Of a stretch of DNA of 41,323 nt, positions 21,626 through 34,014 are shown piece by piece (position 1 is the first letter of the stretch; each line of letters opens with the position of its first letter). Made by a program: the position numbers and the translations under genes. The DNA comes from Escherichia coli (GTDB taxonomy: Bacteria > Pseudomonadota > Gammaproteobacteria > Enterobacterales > Enterobacteriaceae): NCBI RefSeq assembly GCF_003334405.1, contig NZ_QOWM01000024.1; one strand, written 5' to 3'. The notes beneath the pieces were generated by a model that was given only the letters and a program-made list of their open reading frames with translations, was not told where the DNA came from and made no database searches.

Positions 21626-24021
<2,396 letters not shown>

Positions 24022-24041
24022 TCAATCGCTCAATGACCTGA

Positions 24042-24525
<484 letters not shown>

Positions 24526-24560
24526 CGCGCATTATACATACTTAACCACCGAACGCAAGC
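24526..24560 (-). promoter_or_regulatory. S10 operon promoter
   Basis: Minus-strand TTGCGT (plus 24553-24558), 16-bp spacer, TATAAT (plus 24531-24536), then GCGCGGG; predicted start about 170 nt upstream of rpsJ. Confidence 0.5.
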
Positions 24561-24590
24561 GTATTGCTAGTAAAGTAAACAGCCTTCGGG

Positions 24591-25010
24591 TTATCTCTCA
24601 AGTTCGTTCAGTGCATTTTTGACACGCTCTCTTAAACCGGCTTTCTCTTCGCTTTCTTCCACAGTATTTTCTTCGTCTTCAGAAGAAGAGGGGGCATTCT
24701 CAACCGCGACGCCTGGGTCATCTTCCTCCTCGACGGATTCGACGACGGGGAGTGGCTGTTTTTTGAAGAAATAGTGTTGTGTTGATTGTTTAAAAGCGGG
24801 CGTTTCAGCCTCTACAGTGACTTCGGCTTTTACTATCCAAAGCACCCATAGCTGCCTGGCATACCCACCAACCAGCACCATTCCTGCAAACCACAGGCAA
24901 ATCAGTAATAAACAAATTACATATATTATGGTGCTGTGTTTTTGTCGGGAGAAGATACCAGGGTGACCTGTTTCTTTCTGCTCACGCGCGGCGATATAGA
25001 ATTCAAACAT
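24591..25010 (-). CDS. gspB: type II secretion accessory protein GspB (ExeB-like)
   Basis: 139 aa with single TM segment and acidic Ser/Glu-rich C-terminal region; immediately downstream of gspA. Confidence 0.8.
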   Translation of the reverse strand: MFEFYIAAREQKETGHPGIFSRQKHSTIIYVICLLLICLWFAGMVLVGGYARQLWVLWIVKAEVTVEAETPAFKQSTQHYFFKKQPLPVVESVEEEDDPGVAVENAPSSSEDEENTVEESEEKAGLRERVKNALNELER

Positions 25011-25011
25011 G

Positions 25012-26481
25012 TCATTTCCCCTTCACTGTTGTTTCCGGGGAAATATTTGCTTCATCCCGATATAAGTAGGCACTCTCCCCTGCCACCTGCCAGAGATGTA
25101 CTAACGTTGAAAAGCCAACAACACCGTCAGTTTTCAAGTGGTGGCTTTTTTGAAATTGCTTTATTTTTTCTACCAACAAGGGACGCCACTCCGCCGAAGG
25201 TTCTGTCGAAATATGCAATGCGCGGTTTAACATCGTTTCCAGCCAGAGAATCTCTTCCTCGCTGCTATCACGCGTAATGGTACTCTCCCCTTCCGGCGAC
25301 ATTTTCCACAACAGAAGATAATCACCCGTCCATACCGACTCAAACCATTTATGTGTCAGCGTCCACGTTTGCTGACCTACGAGGACATCAACGCTAGCCT
25401 CACCGACGCGAACGACCACAACAGGCAATTTTTTGTCCCCGACTTTAAGCGATGCGATCCAGGGCAAATTCTGATCTACCAATGTTTGTAAAGAAGCATT
25501 CCCACTTTTACATGCCAGCCCCGCTCTTACTGCCTGATCGCACCAGGCCGAATCAGCTGGGACCTCGTACCCCCATACGCCGTATAACACGCTTAGCGCC
25601 TCACTATCGCGCATCACCACATGAGCAATATCCTTAGTCATATCTTGTTTAACTACTGGCGTTACGGGTATCAGCCACGCAGGAACGGGTAACGTAGCTG
25701 TAAAAGAGGACAGCAGTAGCCAACCACAGGTAAGAGCGATAATGGTTCCACTCATCACCACGGCAAGCTGCATTTTCCGGGGGCGGTTATCACCCAATAT
25801 GCGGTAAATCATTCGCCATTGTTTTGCTGTGAAAACGCTGGTCTGCTCGGCTTGCTGTAATAAGCGAATTGTTTCGCCGGCAAGCGCCAGCTTTCTGCGA
25901 TCGCCCCGACATAATAAAGCTATCCGTTTCAGAACTCTGGCGGTTAAAAGGAGATCGGGTTGGTCAATATTCTGACCTTCAAGGATGCTTGCCTTAAGTT
26001 CGTGCTCCGTCAGACGTCCTATCGAGACAAGTTCAATGCCCTGTTTTTTAAAATCACGTTCGACTTTTCGATCGGGTCTGCCGATCAGCAAAAATTGACC
26101 GTCAGGAATAAGAGATATTGCGCGTTGGAGATCATCAAGTATGCGGCGGTGATTCAGGTGAGCATTTTCAATAATAATAAGAGGGCAGCGACTATCAGTT
26201 CGATGAAGCGCATGCAGTAATTGCCCCGCCATCTCATCTCGCGTCCAGGCGCTGTCACGGCAGCCCTGTTCAGCCGCGTTATCGTCGGTAACGATCCATG
26301 CGGCCTTACCTTGCCAGGAAACAACGAGGCTTAAAGTAATCACACGGCGATGTTTATCTTTTTGCAGTTGCTGCGCCAGCCAGGTTTTTCCACTTCCAGC
26401 CTCACCCAACAAATAGCATAGACGCCAGGTTTGACGTTTCTCACACAACCAGGAAAGAATAACTTCTCTTCTCGTAGACAT
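25012..26481 (-). CDS. gspA: type II secretion accessory ATPase-like protein GspA (ExeA-like)
   Basis: 489 aa, Walker A GEAGSGKT near the N-terminus, TM segment, periplasmic C-terminal domain; divergent from gspC. Confidence 0.85.
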   Translation of the reverse strand: MSTRREVILSWLCEKRQTWRLCYLLGEAGSGKTWLAQQLQKDKHRRVITLSLVVSWQGKAAWIVTDDNAAEQGCRDSAWTRDEMAGQLLHALHRTDSRCPLIIIENAHLNHRRILDDLQRAISLIPDGQFLLIGRPDRKVERDFKKQGIELVSIGRLTEHELKASILEGQNIDQPDLLLTARVLKRIALLCRGDRRKLALAGETIRLLQQAEQTSVFTAKQWRMIYRILGDNRPRKMQLAVVMSGTIIALTCGWLLLSSFTATLPVPAWLIPVTPVVKQDMTKDIAHVVMRDSEALSVLYGVWGYEVPADSAWCDQAVRAGLACKSGNASLQTLVDQNLPWIASLKVGDKKLPVVVVRVGEASVDVLVGQQTWTLTHKWFESVWTGDYLLLWKMSPEGESTITRDSSEEEILWLETMLNRALHISTEPSAEWRPLLVEKIKQFQKSHHLKTDGVVGFSTLVHLWQVAGESAYLYRDEANISPETTVKGK

Positions 26482-26660
26482 AGAACTTCCTGTTTTAATT
26501 ATTGATTATCCTTAATCATAAAAATAATGTATGTATTTATTAATTAAATACATATTACTAATATAAATAAATTTTGCTTGATTCATGCAAGCGGCATTAA
26601 TACTATTTATACTAACGTCAATATACAACCCACCCAATCTATTTTATTAGAACATACATC
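26482..26660. promoter_or_regulatory. AT-rich divergent gspA / gspC control region with 10-bp-arm inverted repeat
   Basis: About 80 percent A+T over 179 bp; perfect inverted repeat TATGTATTTA-ttaat-TAAATACATA at 26530-26554; H-NS silencing of this locus is from memory of the literature. Confidence 0.5.
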
Positions 26661-27476
26661 GTGCCCACACTACGTTTCCCCTTCCATCTGGCGAATCATA
26701 ATAAAGATGCTGCCATCAATATATTGATTATATTTATAAGCATAGGGTCGATTATTTTTAATGTGAATTATTTCCATACAACTATAGTTAAAAATGGACA
26801 GATCATTAATCAACCAACAAACGCATTTCAGTCTGATTTCAGCCTTGCCGCTTTATGGCGTAACGAAAATCATGCTGGGGTAAAAGATGCAAATCCCGTG
26901 GCAGTTAATCAGGAAACACCTAAGCTCTCTATAGCGCTTAATGGCATTGTACTCACATCGAATGATGAGACTTCTTTTGTCTTAATTAATGAGGGGAGCG
27001 AACAAAAGCGATACTCCCTCAACGAAGCCCTTGAGTCAGCGCCGGGAACGTTTATTAGAAAAATAAATAAAACCAGCGTTGTGTTTGAAACTCACGGGCA
27101 TTACGAAAAAGTAACTCTCCATCCAGGGCTACCTGACATCATCAAGCAGCCTGATTCAGAAAGTCAAAATGTACTCGCTGATTATATTATCGCCACGCCT
27201 ATACGTGATGGAGAACAGATATACGGGCTTCGATTGAACCCTCGTAAGGGCCTCAATGCATTTACCACCAGCTTGCTACAACCAGGGGATATCGCCCTCA
27301 GGATCAATAATCTTTCGCTGACCCACCCTGATGAGGTTTCACAGGCATTAAGTTTACTGCTAACTCAACAAAGTGCTCAGTTTACAATTCGTCGCAACGG
27401 CGTACCCCGCTTGATAAATGTTTCCGTCGGGGAACTTACAGGAATGAATGGACTGCGTCATGAAAGGACTCAATAA
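26661..27476 (+). CDS. gspC: type II secretion system protein C
   Basis: 271 aa from GTG at 26661; N-terminal TM segment ([15 protein letters not shown]), periplasmic domain; first gene of the gspC-O operon. Confidence 0.8.
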
Positions 27477-29412
27477 AATCACCTGCTGCTTGCTGGCAGC
27501 ACTACTCATGCCTTGTGCAGGACACGCTGAGAACGAACAATACGGCGCGAACTTCAATAACGCCGATATCCGCCAGTTCGTGGAAATAGTGGGTCAGCAT
27601 CTTGGCAAAACGATCCTGATCGACCCTTCGGTACAGGGAACCATTTCCGTACGCAGTAATGATACGTTTAGCCAACAGGAGTACTACCAGTTCTTTTTAA
27701 GTATTCTTGATCTTTACGGTTATTCCGTGATCACGCTGGACAATGGTTTTCTGAAAGTGGTTCGCTCAGCTAATGTAAAAACATCGCCAGGGATGATTGC
27801 TGACAGTTCTCGTCCAGGCGTAGGTGATGAGTTGGTCACCCGAATTGTACCGCTTGAGAACGTTCCTGCTCGTGACCTGGCCCCCCTGCTCCGCCAGATG
27901 ATGGATGCGGGTAGCGTCGGTAATGTTGTGCATTATGAACCCTCCAACGTTCTTATTCTGACCGGTCGTGCCTCCACCATTAATAAACTGATTGAAGTCA
28001 TAAAGCGCGTTGATGTCATCGGCACAGAGAAGCAGCAAATTATTCATCTGGAATATGCGTCAGCGGAAGATCTCGCCGAGATTCTTAATCAATTAATCAG
28101 CGAAAGCCACGGTAAAAGCCAGATGCCAGCCCTCCTCTCCGCGAAGATTGTGGCGGATAAGCGAACCAACTCTCTTATCATCAGTGGACCGGAAAAAGCA
28201 CGCCAGCGCATCACTTCATTACTGAAAAGCCTTGATGTCGAAGAGAGCGAGGAAGGAAATACCCGGGTTTATTACCTGAAATATGCTAAAGCCACGAATC
28301 TGGTGGAAGTGCTAACCGGTGTTTCCGAAAAGCTGAAAGATGAAAAAGGGAATGCGCGTAAGCCCTCCTCTTCTGGCGCGATGGATAACGTCGCCATTAC
28401 CGCCGATGAACAGACTAACTCTCTGGTCATTACCGCTGACCAGTCCGTCCAGGAAAAACTCGCCACGGTAATTGCGCGTCTGGACATTCGCCGTGCACAG
28501 GTGCTGGTTGAGGCAATCATCGTTGAAGTTCAGGATGGAAATGGACTAAACCTCGGCGTGCAATGGGCGAATAAAAACGTTGGCGCACAGCAATTTACCA
28601 ATACCGGATTACCGATTTTTAACGCTGCGCAAGGTGTGGCTGATTATAAAAAGAATGGTGGGATCACCAGCGCGAATCCTGCCTGGGATATGTTTAGCGC
28701 CTACAATGGCATGGCCGCAGGCTTCTTCAATGACGACTGGGGAGTACTGCTTACCGCGCTGGCCAGTAACAATAAAAATGACATCCTCGCCACCCCAAGC
28801 ATCGTAACGCTGGATAATAAACTCGCGTCCTTCAACGTGGGGCAGGATGTGCCGGTGCTATCCGGGTCACAGACCACTTCAGGGGATAACGTCTTTAATA
28901 CCGTCGAACGCAAAACGGTGGGGACAAAACTCAAAGTTACTCCGCAGGTCAATGAAGGCGACGCGGTGTTGCTCGAAATAGAGCAGGAAGTCTCCAGCGT
29001 TGACTCTTCCTCTAACTCGACGCTCGGCCCGACGTTTAATACCCGTACTATTCAAAACGCCGTGCTGGTCAAAACCGGTGAAACGGTGGTCCTGGGCGGA
29101 TTGCTGGATGATTTTTCTAAAGAGCAAGTGTCAAAGGTTCCTCTGCTTGGCGATATTCCTTTAGTGGGGCAACTCTTCCGCTATACCTCCACCGAGCGCG
29201 CTAAACGCAACCTGATGGTATTTATCCGTCCGACGATTATCCGTGACGATGATGTTTATCGCTCACTGTCAAAAGAGAAATACACCCGTTACCGTCAGGA
29301 GCAACAACAGCGGATCGACGGGAAATCAAAAGCGCTGGTTGGCTCGGAAGATTTGCCGGTGCTGGATGAAAACACGTTCAACAGTCACGCCCCTGCGCCA
29401 TCGTCACGGTGA
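27460..29412 (+). CDS. gspD: type II secretion secretin
   Basis: Translation [27 protein letters not shown]... (signal peptide), secretin domain ([15 protein letters not shown]); internal ATG at 27460 gives 650 aa. Confidence 0.9.
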
Positions 29413-29421
29413 GGCATTCAT

Positions 29422-30903
29422 ATGAGAATTCACTCACCGTACCCCGCCAGTTGGGCGCTGGCACAACGAATTGGTTATCTCTATTCAGAGGGCGAGATTA
29501 TTTATCTCGCCGATACGCCATTCGAGCGGTTACTCGATATTCAACGTCAGGTTGGCCAGTGCCAGACCATGACCAGCTTGTCACAGGCTGATTTTGAAGC
29601 TCGGCTGGAAGCGGTATTCCATCAGAATACCGGTGAGTCGCAACAGATTGCGCAGGATATCGATCAATCCGTCGATCTTCTCTCGCTTTCGGAAGAGATG
29701 CCCGCAAATGAAGATCTCCTGAATGAAGATTCAGCGGCACCGGTTATCCGCTTGATCAATGCGATTTTGAGTGAGGCCATCAAAGAAACCGCCTCTGATA
29801 TCCACATTGAAACCTATGAAAAAACAATGTCGATCCGTTTTCGCATCGACGGCGTTTTGCGGACAATTTTACAGCCAAACAAAAAACTGGCGGCACTGCT
29901 TATCTCCCGAATTAAGGTCATGGCTCGTCTTGATATCGCCGAAAAACGTATTCCACAGGATGGAAGAATTAGTTTGCGTATCGGGCGACGTAACATAGAT
30001 GTCCGCGTATCCACACTGCCGTCCATCTATGGTGAACGCGCCGTACTCCGCCTGCTGGATAAAAACAGCCTCCAGCTTTCATTGAACAACCTGGGGATGA
30101 CGGCAGCGGATAAGCAGGATTTAGAAAATCTCATTCAGCTTCCGCACGGTATTATCCTGGTGACAGGGCCGACAGGCTCCGGTAAAAGCACCACGCTCTA
30201 CGCCATCCTTTCGGCGCTGAATACTCCCGGCCGCAATATTCTGACGGTAGAAGATCCCGTGGAATATGAGCTGGAAGGCATTGGGCAAACGCAGGTGAAT
30301 ACCCGTGTGGATATGTCTTTCGCTCGCGGCCTGCGCGCCATACTTCGCCAGGACCCGGATGTCGTCATGGTGGGGGAAATTCGTGATACAGAAACCGCGC
30401 AGATTGCGGTTCAGGCCTCGCTCACCGGCCATCTGGTACTCTCAACACTCCACACTAACAGTGCATCAGGCGCAGTGACCCGGCTCCGCGACATGGGCGT
30501 CGAATCATTCCTGCTTTCGTCTTCCCTGGCAGGGATTATCGCGCAACGTCTGGTTCGTCGCCTGTGTCCGCAATGCCGACAATTCACGCCCGTATCACCC
30601 CAACAAGCGCAGATGTTTAAATATCATCAGCTCGCGGTGACAACAATTGGCACTCCCGTAGGCTGCCCTCATTGCCATCAATCCGGCTATCAGGGGCGCA
30701 TGGCGATCCACGAAATGATGGTGGTGACGCCGGAATTACGGGCCGCTATTCATGAAAATGTGGATGAACAAGCACTGGAGCGACTAGTCCGGCAACAACA
30801 CAAGGCCTTAATCAAAAATGGCCTGCAAAAAGTGATAAGCGGTGACACCTCCTGGGATGAGGTTATGCGCGTCGCCAGTGCCACGCTGGAGAGCGAAGCA
30901 TGA
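29422..30903 (+). CDS. gspE: type II secretion ATPase
   Basis: 493 aa, Walker [10 protein letters not shown], tetracysteine CPQC...CPHC motif. Confidence 0.92.
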
Positions 30904-32096
30904 ATTATCGCTATCGCGCCATGACCCAGGATGGTCAAAAATTGCAAGGGATCATTGATGCTAACGATGAACGTCAGGCACGACTGCGGCTGCGTGAAGA
31001 AGGGCTTTTCCTGCTGGATATTCGCCCCCAAAAAAGTTCGGGAGTAAAAACACGTCGCCCGAGGATCAGCCATAGTGAACTGACGCTTTTCACCCGGCAG
31101 TTGGCAACCTTAAGCGCAGCGGCATTACCCCTGGAAGAGAGCCTTGCCGTAATCGGTCAACAAAGCAGTAATAAACGACTGGGTGACGTGTTAAATCAGG
31201 TACGCAGCGCCATCCTTGAAGGGCATCCCCTTTCCGATGCATTACAGCATTTTCCCACGCTTTTCGATTCGCTCTATCGTACCCTGGTAAAAGCGGGCGA
31301 AAAGAGCGGGCTGCTGGCCCCGGTGTTGGAAAAGCTGGCTGATTACAATGAAAACCGGCAGAAAATCCGCAGCAAGCTCATTCAGTCACTGATCTACCCC
31401 TGTATGCTCACTACGGTGGCGATTGGGGTCGTGATTATTCTCCTCACTGCTGTCGTGCCCAAAATTACCGAACAGTTCGTGCATATGAAGCAGCAACTGC
31501 CGCTGAGTACACGCATTCTTTTAGGTCTGAGCGACACGTTGCAACGTACCGGCCCGACATTATTAGCGACAGTGTTTATTGTCGCTGTAGGTTTCTGGCT
31601 CTGGTTAAAACGCGGCAATAACCGCCACCGTTTTCATGCCATGTTGCTGCGCGTTGCGCTCATCGGCCCGCTGATTTGCGCCATTAACAGCGCACGCTAT
31701 CTCCGCACTTTAAGTATTTTGCAATCCAGCGGCGTCCCTCTGCTGGATGGGATGAATTTGTCCACCGAAAGCCTCAACAACCTCGAAATTCGCCAGCGTC
31801 TGGCAAATGCGGCAGAGAACGTTCGCCAGGGTAACAGCATTCATCTTTCGCTGGAACAAACCGCAATTTTCCCGCCGATGATGCTCTACATGGTGGCCTC
31901 TGGCGAAAAAAGCGGGCAGCTCGGCACATTAATGGTCAGAGCCGCAGATAACCAGGAGACACTCCAACAAAATCGGATCGCCTTAACGCTCTCCATCTTC
32001 GAGCCAGCACTCATTATTACGATGGCACTGATCGTCCTGTTTATTGTCGTGTCGGTACTCCAACCTCTTCTTCAACTTAACTCAATGATTAATTAA
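30900..32096 (+). CDS. gspF: type II secretion inner-membrane platform protein
   Basis: 398 aa polytopic GspF/PilC family; ATGA overlap with gspE. Confidence 0.9.
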
Positions 32097-32105
32097 GGAA
32101 AGCAT

Positions 32106-32543
32106 ATGCGCGCAACGGATAAGCAACGCGGTTTTACATTACTGGAAATTATGGTGGTGATCGTCATTATCGGCGTACTTGCCAGCCTGGTGGTTCCTAA
32201 CCTAATGGGCAATAAAGAAAAGGCGGATAAGCAAAAAGCCGTCAGCGATATTGTGGCGCTGGAAAACGCCCTTGATATGTACAAACTCGACAATCATCAC
32301 TATCCAACCACAAATCAGGGGCTTGAATCCTTAGTAGAAGCGCCGACACTGCCACCGCTGGCCGCAAACTATAACAAGGAAGGTTATATCAAGCGTCTGC
32401 CTGCCGATCCCTGGGGCAATGATTATGTCCTCGTTAATCCTGGTGAACATGGTGCATACGATCTGCTTTCAGCAGGGCCCGATGGTGAAATGGGAACCGA
32501 GGACGACATCACCAACTGGGGTTTGAGCAAGAAGAAAAAGTAA
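32106..32543 (+). CDS. gspG: type II secretion major pseudopilin
   Basis: 145 aa, prepilin leader [26 protein letters not shown]. Confidence 0.92.
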   Translation: MRATDKQRGFTLLEIMVVIVIIGVLASLVVPNLMGNKEKADKQKAVSDIVALENALDMYKLDNHHYPTTNQGLESLVEAPTLPPLAANYNKEGYIKRLPADPWGNDYVLVNPGEHGAYDLLSAGPDGEMGTEDDITNWGLSKKKK

Positions 32544-32550
32544 GTCAGCG

Positions 32551-33060
32551 ATGAATCAGCAACGCGGGTTTACCCTGCTGGAGATGATGCTGGTGCTGGC
32601 GCTGGTCGCTATCACGGCAAGCGTGGTGCTCTTCACATATGGCCGGGAGGATGTCGCCAGCACTCGTGCGCGCGAAACAGCGGCGCGGTTTACCGCTGCA
32701 CTTGAATTAGCCATCGACCGCGCCACGCTCAGTGGTCAGCCTGTCGGTATCCATTTCTCTGATTCAGCATGGCGCATTATGGTACCGGGCAAAACACCAT
32801 CAGCCTGGCGCTGGGTTCCATTACAAGAAGATGCCGCAGACGAGAGCCAAAATGACTGGGATGAAGAACTCTCAATTCATCTTCAGCCATTTAAACCTGA
32901 TGACAGCAACCAGCCACAGGTTGTGATTCTGGCCGACGGACAAATCACGCCCTTCTCTTTGTTGATGGCTAACGCCGGGACCGGTGAGCCGCTCCTGACG
33001 TTAGTCTGTTCAGGCTCATGGCCCCTGGATCAAACGCTCGCCAGAGATACCCGCCCATGA
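32551..33060 (+). CDS. gspH: type II secretion minor pseudopilin H
   Basis: 169 aa, prepilin motif [16 protein letters not shown]. Confidence 0.88.
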
Positions 33061-33434
33061 ACAAACAATCAGGGATGACACTGCTTGAAGTCTTACTGGC
33101 GATGAGTATTTTCACCGCTGTTGCTCTGACTTTAATGAGCAGTATGCAAGGGCAACGAAATGCCATCGAGCGAATGCGTAACGAGACGCTGGCATTGTGG
33201 ATAGCGGATAACCAGCTTCAGTCACAAGATTCATTCGGCGAGGAAAACACGTCCAGTTCTGGCAAAGAGTTAATAAATGGCGAAGAGTGGAACTGGCGCA
33301 GCGATATCCACTCAAGCAAAGACGGCACGCTTCTGGAACGCACCATAACGGTGACATTACCCAGCGGTCAGACAACCTCGCTTACGCGTTATCAAAGCAT
33401 CGATAATAAATCCGGGCAGGCACAAGATGATTAA
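33057..33434 (+). CDS. gspI: type II secretion minor pseudopilin I
   Basis: Translation [19 protein letters not shown]...; internal ATG 33057 (ATGA overlap with gspH) gives 125 aa. Confidence 0.85.
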
Positions 33435-34014
33435 TCGCCAGCAGGGTTTCACATTGCTGGAGGTCATGGCGGCGCTGGCGATTTTCTCAATGCTTAGCGT
33501 GCTGGCGTTTATGATTTTTTCGCAAGCTTCCGAGTTGCATCAACGCTCACAGAAAGAAATCCAGCAGTTCAATCAGCTACAGCGCACCATCACCATTCTT
33601 GATAACGATCTCCTGCAACTGGTCGCCCGGAGGAATCGGAGTACGGACAAAATCATGGTGTTGGGTGAAGAAGCTATTTTTACCACGCAAAGTCGCGATC
33701 CGCTGGCTCCTCTCAGTGAAGCACAAACCTTACTCACTGTTCACTGGTATCTGCGAAATCATACGCTCTACCGTGCTGTTCGTACTTCTGTGGATGGCAG
33801 GAAGGATCAACCCGCCCAGGCGATGCTGGAACATGTCGAGAGCTTTCTTCTGGAAAGTAACAGCGGGGAAAGCCAGGAACTTCCTCTCTCAGTCACGTTA
33901 CATCTGCAGACTCAGCAATATGGGGGGTTACAGCGCCGTTTTGCATTACCTGAGCAGTTAGCGAGAGAAGAGTCGCCAGCTCAGACGCAGGCCGGGAATA
34001 ATAACCATGAATAA
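33427..34014 (+). CDS. gspJ: type II secretion minor pseudopilin J
   Basis: 195 aa, prepilin motif [16 protein letters not shown]. Confidence 0.88.

What the first reader, a model, noticed from the sequence alone, without database searches (positions are those of the whole stretch)
24526..24600. gspB ends about 35 bp upstream of the S10 promoter with no obvious terminator between
The gspB stop codon is at 24591-24593 and the predicted S10 -35 at 24553-24558. I see only a weak 4-bp UUCG/CGAA-type stem in between. If gspAB is ever derepressed, its transcription would read into the S10 promoter and leader, a possible case of promoter interference. Conversely, strong S10 promoter activity may affect local topology at gspAB.
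Basis: inference. Interest (0 to 1): 0.3.

Follow-up and report, generated by a model that had tools for sequence, protein, structure and literature searches.

The report
gspB abuts the S10 promoter
In E. coli the secretion-assembly gene gspB stops 32 bases before the promoter of a large ribosomal-protein operon with no terminator between them, an old and conserved layout that probably matters little, because gspB is barely transcribed and the ribosomal promoter is very strong.

Summary
On the minus strand the gspB stop codon is at 24593-24591. The S10 (rpsJ) promoter is TTGCGT (24558-24553), a 16-nt spacer, then TATAAT (24536-24531), with the start site at 24524. The 32-nt gap holds no intrinsic terminator, no Rho-loading-like stretch and no mapped RNA 3' end.

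The abutment is ancestral. All eight distinct gspAB loci I recovered (GspB down to 22-40% identity) place the gspB stop 10-54 nt before the same promoter. The first terminator downstream is the L4-controlled attenuator in the S10 leader (3' end at 24387). Transcripts that finish gspB should therefore end there or run on into rpsJ.

Meaningful interference with the S10 promoter is unlikely. The gspAB promoter lies in an H-NS-marked, AT-rich spacer. In addition, 41.5% of complete E. coli genomes have no gspAB at this site.

By-product: the boundary of a 16.6-kb two-form segment (gsp-bfr-bfd-chiA versus a short peptidase-bfr-bfd) lies inside the S10 promoter spacer.

This is an ordinary tandem-operon layout of low interest. 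Read-through itself remains untested.

The parts
25012..26481 (-). gspA coding sequence (489 aa; AAA+, GspA C39-like and peptidoglycan-binding domains)
   Evidence: ORF list, RefSeq annotation, and Pfam hits on orthologues.
26515..26543 (-). Candidate gspAB promoter, TTAATA-17-TATGAT, in the AT-rich gspA/gspC spacer
   Evidence: Pattern scan. The same hexamers are listed for gspAB with an 'HNS' mark in PMC3946193. GC is 0.285-0.335 across 26400-26900.
24591..25010 (-). gspB coding sequence (139 aa); stop TAA at 24593-24591
   Evidence: The C-terminal motif LRERVxxAlxEL is shared by divergent orthologues.
24559..24590 (-). 32-nt untranslated gap between the gspB stop and the -35. It includes an A+T-rich block, GTTTACTTTACTAGCAATA (24580-24562), at the position where an UP element would lie.
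   Evidence: Sequence. No hairpin or U tract. The first 11 nt vary between lineages, while 24580 and everything downstream is almost invariant.
24553..24558 (-). S10 promoter -35 hexamer, TTGCGT
   Evidence: Sequence. TTGC is conserved at this spacing in 24 of 24 Enterobacterales rows.
24537..24552 (-). 16-nt promoter spacer. Its downstream edge (24537/24538) is the boundary of the two-form gsp segment.
   Evidence: The alignment with a gsp-lacking E. coli stops being similar at 24537.
24531..24536 (-). S10 promoter -10 hexamer, TATAAT, followed by the GC-rich discriminator GCGCGG
24354..24524 (-). S10 leader (5' UTR), with the transcription start at 24524
   Evidence: The reporter primer for the 'entire 5' UTR' of rpsJ starts GCTTGTCG. 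The fold shows the known hairpin series.
24381..24431 (-). L4/NusA-controlled attenuator (hairpin 24431-24389, U-rich tail 24388-24381). It is the first terminator downstream of gspB. The mapped 3' end is at 24387, which is MG1655 coordinate 3453304.
   Evidence: Hairpin of -13.2 kcal/mol with tail AUUUUCGU. Term-seq 3' end annotated 'L4 binding'. The hairpin folds the same way in the read-through RNA.
24042..24353 (-). rpsJ (S10), first gene of the 11-gene S10 operon

Best explanation
[quoted passage not shown] Nothing in the 32-nt gap can stop a polymerase. This is shown by sequence, folding and the absence of a mapped 3' end.

Inferred: any polymerase that starts at the gspAB promoter and completes gspB runs across the S10 promoter into the S10 leader. 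There it meets its first terminator, the L4/NusA-controlled attenuator at 24387, which is 204 nt past the stop codon. The gspAB mRNA therefore either ends with the S10 promoter and leader as its 3' UTR or continues into rpsJ.

Also inferred: the effect on S10 expression is negligible. gspAB transcription is weak and H-NS-silenced, whereas the S10 promoter fires very often. Occlusion scales with the upstream firing rate times roughly 1-2 s of transit, which gives about 1% or less for a weak promoter.

The layout is ancestral to enterobacterial gspAB loci and is tolerated. There is no sign that it is a regulatory device.
For: Anatomy.

No terminator.

No Rho-loading-like composition: the RNA from 24730 to 24491 has C 16-21% against G 24-30%.

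Published 3' ends: Term-seq (PMC7815308, supplementary file 1, not truncated) has no 3' end on this strand between 3453304 (the S10 attenuator) and 3466218 (the bfr terminator), and 'gspB' never occurs in the files.

Attenuator: its hairpin folds identically with and without the 5' extension. Helices HA-HC of the leader are dispensable for L4 control (PMC3616713), and the leader still supports rpsJ expression and its regulation by the small RNA MotR behind a heterologous pBAD promoter (PMC10578931).

Conservation: all eight distinct gspAB loci (two rows, L133 and L112, are the same sequence) have the S10 promoter 10-54 nt after the gspB stop. GspB identity falls to 22-40% across them.

Weak upstream promoter in H-NS-marked, AT-rich DNA.

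Natural control: 2253 of 5426 E. coli genomes have no gspAB here. In the one such genome examined in detail, a divergently oriented peptidase gene takes its place.
Against: No read-through transcript has been seen. The missing 3' end may only reflect very low gspAB expression in wild type. None of the long-read or Rend-seq tables I tried was held. The occlusion estimate is a back-of-envelope inference, not a measurement. A polymerase bound at the busy S10 promoter could itself block incoming polymerases, so that transcripts end in the gap without any terminator sequence.
Confidence: 0.62

Rival explanations
1. One reading: when gspAB is derepressed, read-through polymerases occlude or dislodge polymerase at the S10 promoter and measurably lower or reshape S10 operon expression.
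For: The geometry allows it. The promoters are co-directional with no terminator, and the stop codon is 32 nt from the -35.
Against: The upstream promoter is a weak match in H-NS-marked DNA. The S10 leader 3' end is among the most abundant in Term-seq, while gspB gives none. The promoter has a GC-rich discriminator, a feature associated (established knowledge) with short-lived open complexes, which are the least sensitive to 'sitting-duck' interference. The same layout has persisted across lineages with GspB identity of 22-40%, which argues against a cost.
Confidence: 0.07
2. Roadblock termination: polymerase sitting or initiating at the very busy S10 promoter physically stops polymerases arriving from gspB. 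These are then released, for example by Mfd or Rho, so gspAB transcripts end heterogeneously in the gap without a terminator sequence.
For: It would explain how gspAB can lack a terminator in every lineage. No discrete 3' end is mapped.
Against: There is no direct evidence. In general, elongating polymerases displace promoter-bound ones rather than the reverse (established knowledge). Heterogeneous ends would be hard to distinguish from low expression.
Confidence: 0.13
3. A cryptic Rho-dependent or RNase-generated 3' end just after gspB defines the gspAB mRNA, so little or nothing reaches the S10 leader.
For: Many E. coli operons end by Rho action without a recognisable motif. H-NS-silenced genes are frequent Rho targets (established knowledge). 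A Rho-dependent region is listed antisense to gspA, on the + strand at 3454633.
Against: Only 67 nt of untranslated RNA lie between the stop codon and the S10 start. Their composition is G-rich and C-poor, the opposite of a Rho loading site. No bicyclomycin-sensitive region is listed on the minus strand here.
Confidence: 0.1
4. Functional coupling: the abutment is kept because it benefits gspAB or S10. For example, the end of gspB supplies the UP-like upstream element, or the L4 attenuator ties GspAB output to ribosome synthesis.
For: The abutment is conserved at 10-54 nt in all eight distinct gspAB loci. The block from about -56 to -36 is nearly identical between E. coli gsp lineages that differ by about 22% elsewhere. 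Several divergent gspAB loci (L130, L132, L133/L112; partly L129) share a different upstream motif, GCTCAYTTTCGCGACGAT.
Against: The S10 promoter works without gspAB in 41.5% of E. coli genomes and in most Enterobacterales sampled. The conservation can equally be explained by compact genomes together with recombination breakpoints in the conserved flank.
Confidence: 0.08

Closest known systems
Read-through between the neighbouring S10, spc and alpha ribosomal-protein operons of E. coli (Lindahl and co-workers, around 1990; recalled from memory, not checked here)
   Same: Co-directional operons follow one another closely, the next promoter lies just beyond the last gene, and termination between them is inefficient.
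   Different: There both partners are strong, co-regulated r-protein operons, and read-through contributes materially. Here the upstream unit is a silenced accessory secretion operon, and read-through has not been demonstrated.
Transcriptional interference between tandem promoters (occlusion and 'sitting duck' models; Shearwin, Callen and Egan; Sneppen et al. 2005; recalled from memory)
   Same: Same geometry: an upstream promoter whose transcripts traverse a downstream promoter with no terminator between.
   Different: Documented cases need an upstream promoter as strong as or stronger than the target. Here the strength ratio is the reverse, judging from the H-NS mark and Term-seq abundance.
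L4-mediated attenuation in the S10 leader (Zengel and Lindahl; summarised in PMC3616713 and PMC10578931)
   Same: The attenuator hairpin, U run and mapped 3' end at 24387 are exactly this element. It would act on any RNA that contains helices HD and HE.
   Different: It has been described only for transcripts starting at the S10 promoter or at plasmid promoters. A role as the de facto terminator of gspAB is my inference.
The H-NS-silenced gspAB / gspC-O divergent operon pair of E. coli K-12 (Francetic and Pugsley 1996; Francetic et al. 2000; papers not held)
   Same: Same genes and same promoter region.
   Different: Those studies, as far as I recall, concern the promoters and secretion function, not the 3' end of gspAB. 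My searches found no paper that discusses gspB together with the S10 promoter.

Membership tests
Sigma-70 promoter (S10 operon promoter) | -10 hexamer close to TATAAT | tested here: met
   TATAAT at 24536-24531. It is invariant in 24 of 24 Enterobacterales rows.
Sigma-70 promoter (S10 operon promoter) | -35 hexamer at 16-18 nt spacing | tested here: met
   TTGCGT with a 16-nt spacer. It matches only 3 of 6 of the consensus, so the tool's scan missed it. TTGC at this exact spacing is present in all 24 rows.
Sigma-70 promoter (S10 operon promoter) | Transcription start about 7 nt after the -10 | tested here: met
   The published reporter holding the 'entire 5' UTR' of rpsJ begins GCTTGTCG, which is window 24524. 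I did not examine raw 5'-end data.
Intrinsic (Rho-independent) terminator between gspB and the S10 promoter | G+C-rich stem-loop followed by a U tract | tested here: not met
   Nothing found by pattern scan or energy scans. The S10 attenuator served as a positive control and was found.
Intrinsic (Rho-independent) terminator between gspB and the S10 promoter | Mapped RNA 3' end at the site | tested here: not met
   No curated Term-seq 3' end between MG1655 3453304 and 3466218 on the minus strand. Caveat: gspAB expression is low.
Rho-dependent terminator after gspB | C-rich, G-poor, unstructured untranslated RNA of about 70 nt or more | tested here: not met
   There are 67 nt from the stop codon to the S10 start. 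80-nt windows across the region show C 16-19% and G 24-29%.
Rho-dependent terminator after gspB | Bicyclomycin-sensitive read-through | tested here: inconclusive
   The published table of Rho regions lists only a + strand antisense site in gspA. Low expression of gspAB limits what this shows.
Tandem-promoter transcriptional interference | Co-directional upstream promoter with no terminator before the target promoter | tested here: met
   Candidate gspAB promoter at 26543-26515, and no terminator.
Tandem-promoter transcriptional interference | Upstream promoter at least comparable in strength to the target | tested here: inconclusive
   Indirect evidence points the other way: the H-NS mark and AT-rich spacer, and 0.78-1.5 million in the Term-seq value column for the S10 leader 3' end against none for gspB. 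No promoter activities were measured.
Tandem-promoter transcriptional interference | Measured drop in target promoter firing when the upstream promoter is active | not testable with these tools
   Needs an experiment or reanalysis of raw RNA-seq data.
L4-controlled S10 leader attenuator | Hairpins HD/HE followed by a U run, with a 3' end in the run | tested here: met
   Hairpin 24431-24389 (-13.2 kcal/mol), tail AUUUUCGU, and a Term-seq 3' end at 24387 annotated 'L4 binding'.
L4-controlled S10 leader attenuator | A match to a curated RNA family model | tested here: not met
   No Rfam hit at E <= 1.
GspA/GspB (ExeA/ExeB-type) secretin assembly pair | gspB directly follows a gspA that has AAA+ and peptidoglycan-binding domains, next to a divergent gspC-D cluster | tested here: met
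   RefSeq names. Pfam AAA_22, GspA_C39-like and PG_binding_1 on the neighbouring gene, and T2SSC and secretin on the divergent genes, in all loci. GspB itself has no Pfam hit.

The most novel reading that the evidence does not exclude
The S10 promoter may be a composite. Its downstream part (the -10 onward) belongs to the conserved operon. Its upstream half (spacer, -35 and the UP-like block) belongs to, and is exchanged together with, the neighbouring accessory segment. E. coli carries at least two unrelated upstream halves (58% and 41.5% of genomes) for an essential 11-gene operon. Separately, the universal gspB-to-promoter abutment could mean that gspAB transcripts are terminated by the L4 attenuator, tying secretin-assembly factor output to ribosome synthesis.
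Probability: 0.12. Interest if true: 0.45.

Novelty: new member of a known kind. Interest (0 to 1): 0.2.

Why it matters
It matters little for S10 expression. The layout is a routine case of two co-directional operons without a terminator, and the strength ratio makes interference improbable.

It has some practical value. Cassettes inserted in gspB as 'neutral' markers next to the S10 leader (as done in PMC5395140) place a foreign promoter directly upstream of an essential operon, with nothing to stop read-through.

The by-product deserves a note. A species-wide two-form segment ends inside the promoter of an essential operon, so different E. coli lineages drive the S10 operon from different upstream promoter halves.

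Tried and rejected
- Rfam search of 23900-25200: only a chance hit, and no model matched the S10 leader.
- Transcript-level evidence: the supplements of the SMRT-Cappable-seq paper contain no gsp or rpsJ rows. The Rend-seq and nanopore papers have no supplements held. Francetic et al. 2000 is not held.
- The one genome-contig scan used a 23-nt rpsJ start that turned out to be conserved across Gammaproteobacteria. It was still useful for the promoter table.
- L123 and L126, which looked like 73% and 36% GspB relatives, are K-12-type DNA with frameshifts and were dropped as evidence of divergence.
- A possible read-through hairpin pairs the -35 region with the discriminator (GCUUGCGU...GCGCGGGC, -10.7 kcal/mol, 22-nt loop). 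I rejected it as a terminator because the loop is too large and the U tail is poor.
It has 0 kcal/mol on the relevant strand, is altered in the one ST131 genome I aligned (CCCAAAGG) and is absent from the L124 lineage.
- A simple deletion origin for the gsp-lacking form was rejected. The spacer differs at most positions, and bfr/bfd are only 77% identical between the two forms.

Full report
**What is there**

The window is E. coli K-12-like DNA. All 5426 complete E. coli genomes match the S10 leader, and identical records annotate gspA, gspB and rpsJ. The following features lie on the minus strand:
- gspA runs from 26481 to 25012.
- gspB runs from 25010 to 24591, with stop TAA at 24593-24591.
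- A 32-nt gap follows, at 24590-24559.
- The S10 promoter has TTGCGT at 24558-24553, a 16-nt spacer, TATAAT at 24536-24531 and the discriminator GCGCGG.
- The leader follows, and rpsJ starts at 24353.

The consensus scan did not report this promoter because TTGCGT matches only 3 of 6 of TTGACA. The assignment rests on two things:
- Anchored on the -10, all 24 Enterobacterales rows I assembled read TTGCnn, 16 nt, TATAAT, GCGCGGGC or a close variant.
- A published reporter carrying the 'entire 5' UTR' of rpsJ begins GCTTGTCG, which places +1 at 24524.

With that start site, the gspB stop codon occupies -69 to -67.

**Is there a terminator?**

No.
- The pattern scan finds none on the minus strand between gspB and rpsJ.
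- RNA 24640-24526 folds at -21 kcal/mol, against -25 +/- 3.3 for shuffles (z = +1.2).
- My scan for single hairpins followed by a U-rich tail finds only loose structures of -8 kcal/mol or weaker with very large loops. It recovers the S10 attenuator as a control (-13.2 kcal/mol, tail AUUUUCGU).
- The bfr terminator in this window is a strong hairpin with a poor U tail. I therefore also looked for any strong hairpin regardless of tail, and found none.
The stretch 24600-24559 folds no better than 81% of its shuffles.
- The stem is changed in the one ST131 genome I aligned (CCCAAAGG) and absent from a divergent gsp lineage (TCTGCCCGTTG).
- Rho loading is unlikely. Only 67 untranslated nucleotides separate the stop codon from the S10 start, and the RNA there is G-rich and C-poor (C 16-19%, G 24-29%).

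**Published 3' ends**

In the Term-seq tables of Adams et al. 2021 (PMC7815308; supplementary file 1 is held uncut), the minus strand has no curated 3' end between MG1655 3453304 and 3466218. 'gspB' does not occur in any of the four files.
- Position 3453304 is window 24387. It is the U run of the S10 leader attenuator, annotated 'L4 binding', with 0.78-1.5 million in the table's value column.
- Position 3466218 is the bfr terminator.

Because gspAB is poorly expressed in wild type, this is weak support rather than proof of read-through.

**How the region most likely works**

Shown: there is no stop signal in the gap. The first terminator downstream is the attenuator hairpin (24431-24389) with its U run, 204 nt beyond the gspB stop. 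This hairpin folds identically in the leader alone and in an RNA extended back into gspB.

From the literature:
- Only helices HD and HE are needed for L4-mediated termination. HA-HC are dispensable (PMC3616713).
- The leader still supports rpsJ expression and its regulation by the small RNA MotR behind a heterologous pBAD promoter (PMC10578931).

Inferred:
- Polymerases that complete gspB cross the promoter. They then either terminate at 24387, which gives gspAB mRNA a 3' UTR made of the S10 promoter and leader, or continue into rpsJ.
- Interference with S10 is negligible. The gspAB promoter (TTAATA-17-TATGAT at 26543-26515) sits in a 28-33% GC spacer that a SELEX study marks 'HNS'.
- Occlusion scales with the upstream firing rate times a transit time of about 1-2 s. 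For a weak promoter this is about 1% or less.
- The GC-rich discriminator is a feature associated (established knowledge) with short-lived open complexes, the kind least prone to being dislodged.

**Comparative evidence**

The abutment is not specific to K-12. A profile search for GspB relatives, followed by look-ups of their contigs, plus two loci from the species scan, gave eight distinct gspAB loci (nine rows, because L133 and L112 are the same sequence). In all eight, the S10 promoter follows the gspB stop directly.

| Locus | Stop to -35 (nt) |
|---|---|
| E. coli K-12 type | 32 |
| L124 (divergent E. coli-named lineage, about 78% nt identity) | 32 |
| L129 | 46 |
| L130 | 33 |
| L131 | 54 |
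| L132 | 32 |
| L133 / L112 (Enterobacteriaceae UBA5654) | 30 |
| L113 (Citrobacter amalonaticus) | 10 |

GspB identity to E. coli falls to 22-40% in these loci, yet the C-terminal motif LRERVxxAlxEL is retained. None of the gaps contains a credible terminator. The layout is therefore old and tolerated, which argues against a cost.

Conversely, 2253 of 5426 E. coli genomes (41.5%) have no gspAB at this site. In the one examined in detail (L001), a 155-aa prepilin-peptidase gene is transcribed away from the S10 promoter. Most other Enterobacterales sampled carry a peptidase remnant, bfr, or both upstream instead of gspAB. gspAB read-through is therefore not needed for S10 expression.

**By-product: a two-form segment that ends inside the promoter**

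A gsp-lacking E. coli was compared with the window.
- The two are 99.95% identical up to 24537, one base upstream of the -10.
- They are unrelated from 24538 to 37347.
- They are only 77% identical across bfr and bfd.
- They are identical again from 41176, just beyond tufA.

Both forms keep GCTTGCGT and the 16-nt spacing, but 11 of the 16 spacer bases differ. The spacer of the gsp-lacking form (..CAGATTTGCG) resembles that of other gsp-lacking genera such as Silvania and Mangrovibacter.

Of the 5426 genomes, 3169 carry the gspB-type junction. A pan-genome study independently found gspAB, gspC-O, chiA, bfr and bfd co-segregating as accessory genes (PMC11390585). I found no paper that places the boundary inside the promoter.

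**Comparison with known systems and novelty**

The genes, the promoter and the attenuator are textbook elements. Operons without terminators and tandem-promoter read-through are common. My literature searches found no paper that addresses the gspB-to-S10 junction. I therefore file it as a new instance of a known kind, with low interest.

The read-through itself and the size of any interference remain untested. The experiments that would settle them are listed under next steps.

Noticed in passing
window 24538-41175 (boundaries 24537/24538 and 41175/41176): A 16.6-kb two-form segment lies between the S10 promoter -10 and the 3' flank of tufA. K-12-type genomes carry gspBA, gspC-O, bfr, bfd and chiA. 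The other form carries a 155-aa prepilin peptidase plus bfr and bfd alleles that are only 77% identical at the DNA level. The flanks are 99.95-100% identical. Counts are 3169 and 2253 of 5426 genomes.
   Followed up: partly
L124:3421-3480 compared with window 24590-24531: A third, rare gsp lineage (about 78% nt identity across gspA and gspB; 2 of 5426 genomes fall in the 80-90% identity band for this junction) becomes nearly identical to K-12 starting 11 nt after the gspB stop, at about -56. This marks a second sharp identity boundary at the promoter's upstream edge.
   Followed up: partly
L130, L132, L133/L112 and L129, the 25 nt upstream of the -35: Divergent gsp-linked S10 promoters share a block, GCTCAYTTTCGCGACGAT(TTAC), directly upstream of the -35. 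Several gsp-lacking promoters share TAATTTCTAAAC at the same place. These may be UP-like elements or a factor binding site.
   Followed up: no
window 24560-24523, minus strand: The -35 region (GCUUGCGU) can pair with the discriminator (GCGCGGGC), giving -10.7 kcal/mol with a 22-nt loop, in any RNA that reads through the promoter. I judged it not to be a terminator.
   Followed up: yes
L128:1607-2319 (E. coli G3/10), equivalent to about window 24643: An IS1 element is inserted in gspB about 50 nt upstream of its stop, and a second IS1 truncates gspA. The S10 promoter and the last 50 nt of gspB are untouched.
   Followed up: no
L126:3480-3600: One assembly (GCA_037022625.1) has gspAB and the promoter identical to K-12, but its S10 leader and operon are diverged (72-94% identity) and its r-protein genes are fragmented. 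It is either a chimeric or low-quality assembly, or a recombinant with the breakpoint again at the promoter.
   Followed up: no
L130-L133, locus ends: Four metagenome contigs that carry divergent gspAB stop 83-186 nt after the gspB stop. My guess is that the assemblies break at the S10 leader because it is shared between strains.
   Followed up: no
window 25716, + strand (MG1655 3454633): A published bicyclomycin data set lists a Rho-dependent termination region antisense to gspA (PMC7815308, supplementary file 2).
   Followed up: no
window 24582-24593, + strand: The AGCC-UUCG-GGUU tetraloop hairpin is stable only on the + strand (-2.3 kcal/mol), which is antisense to gspB. No transcript is known there.
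   Followed up: yes
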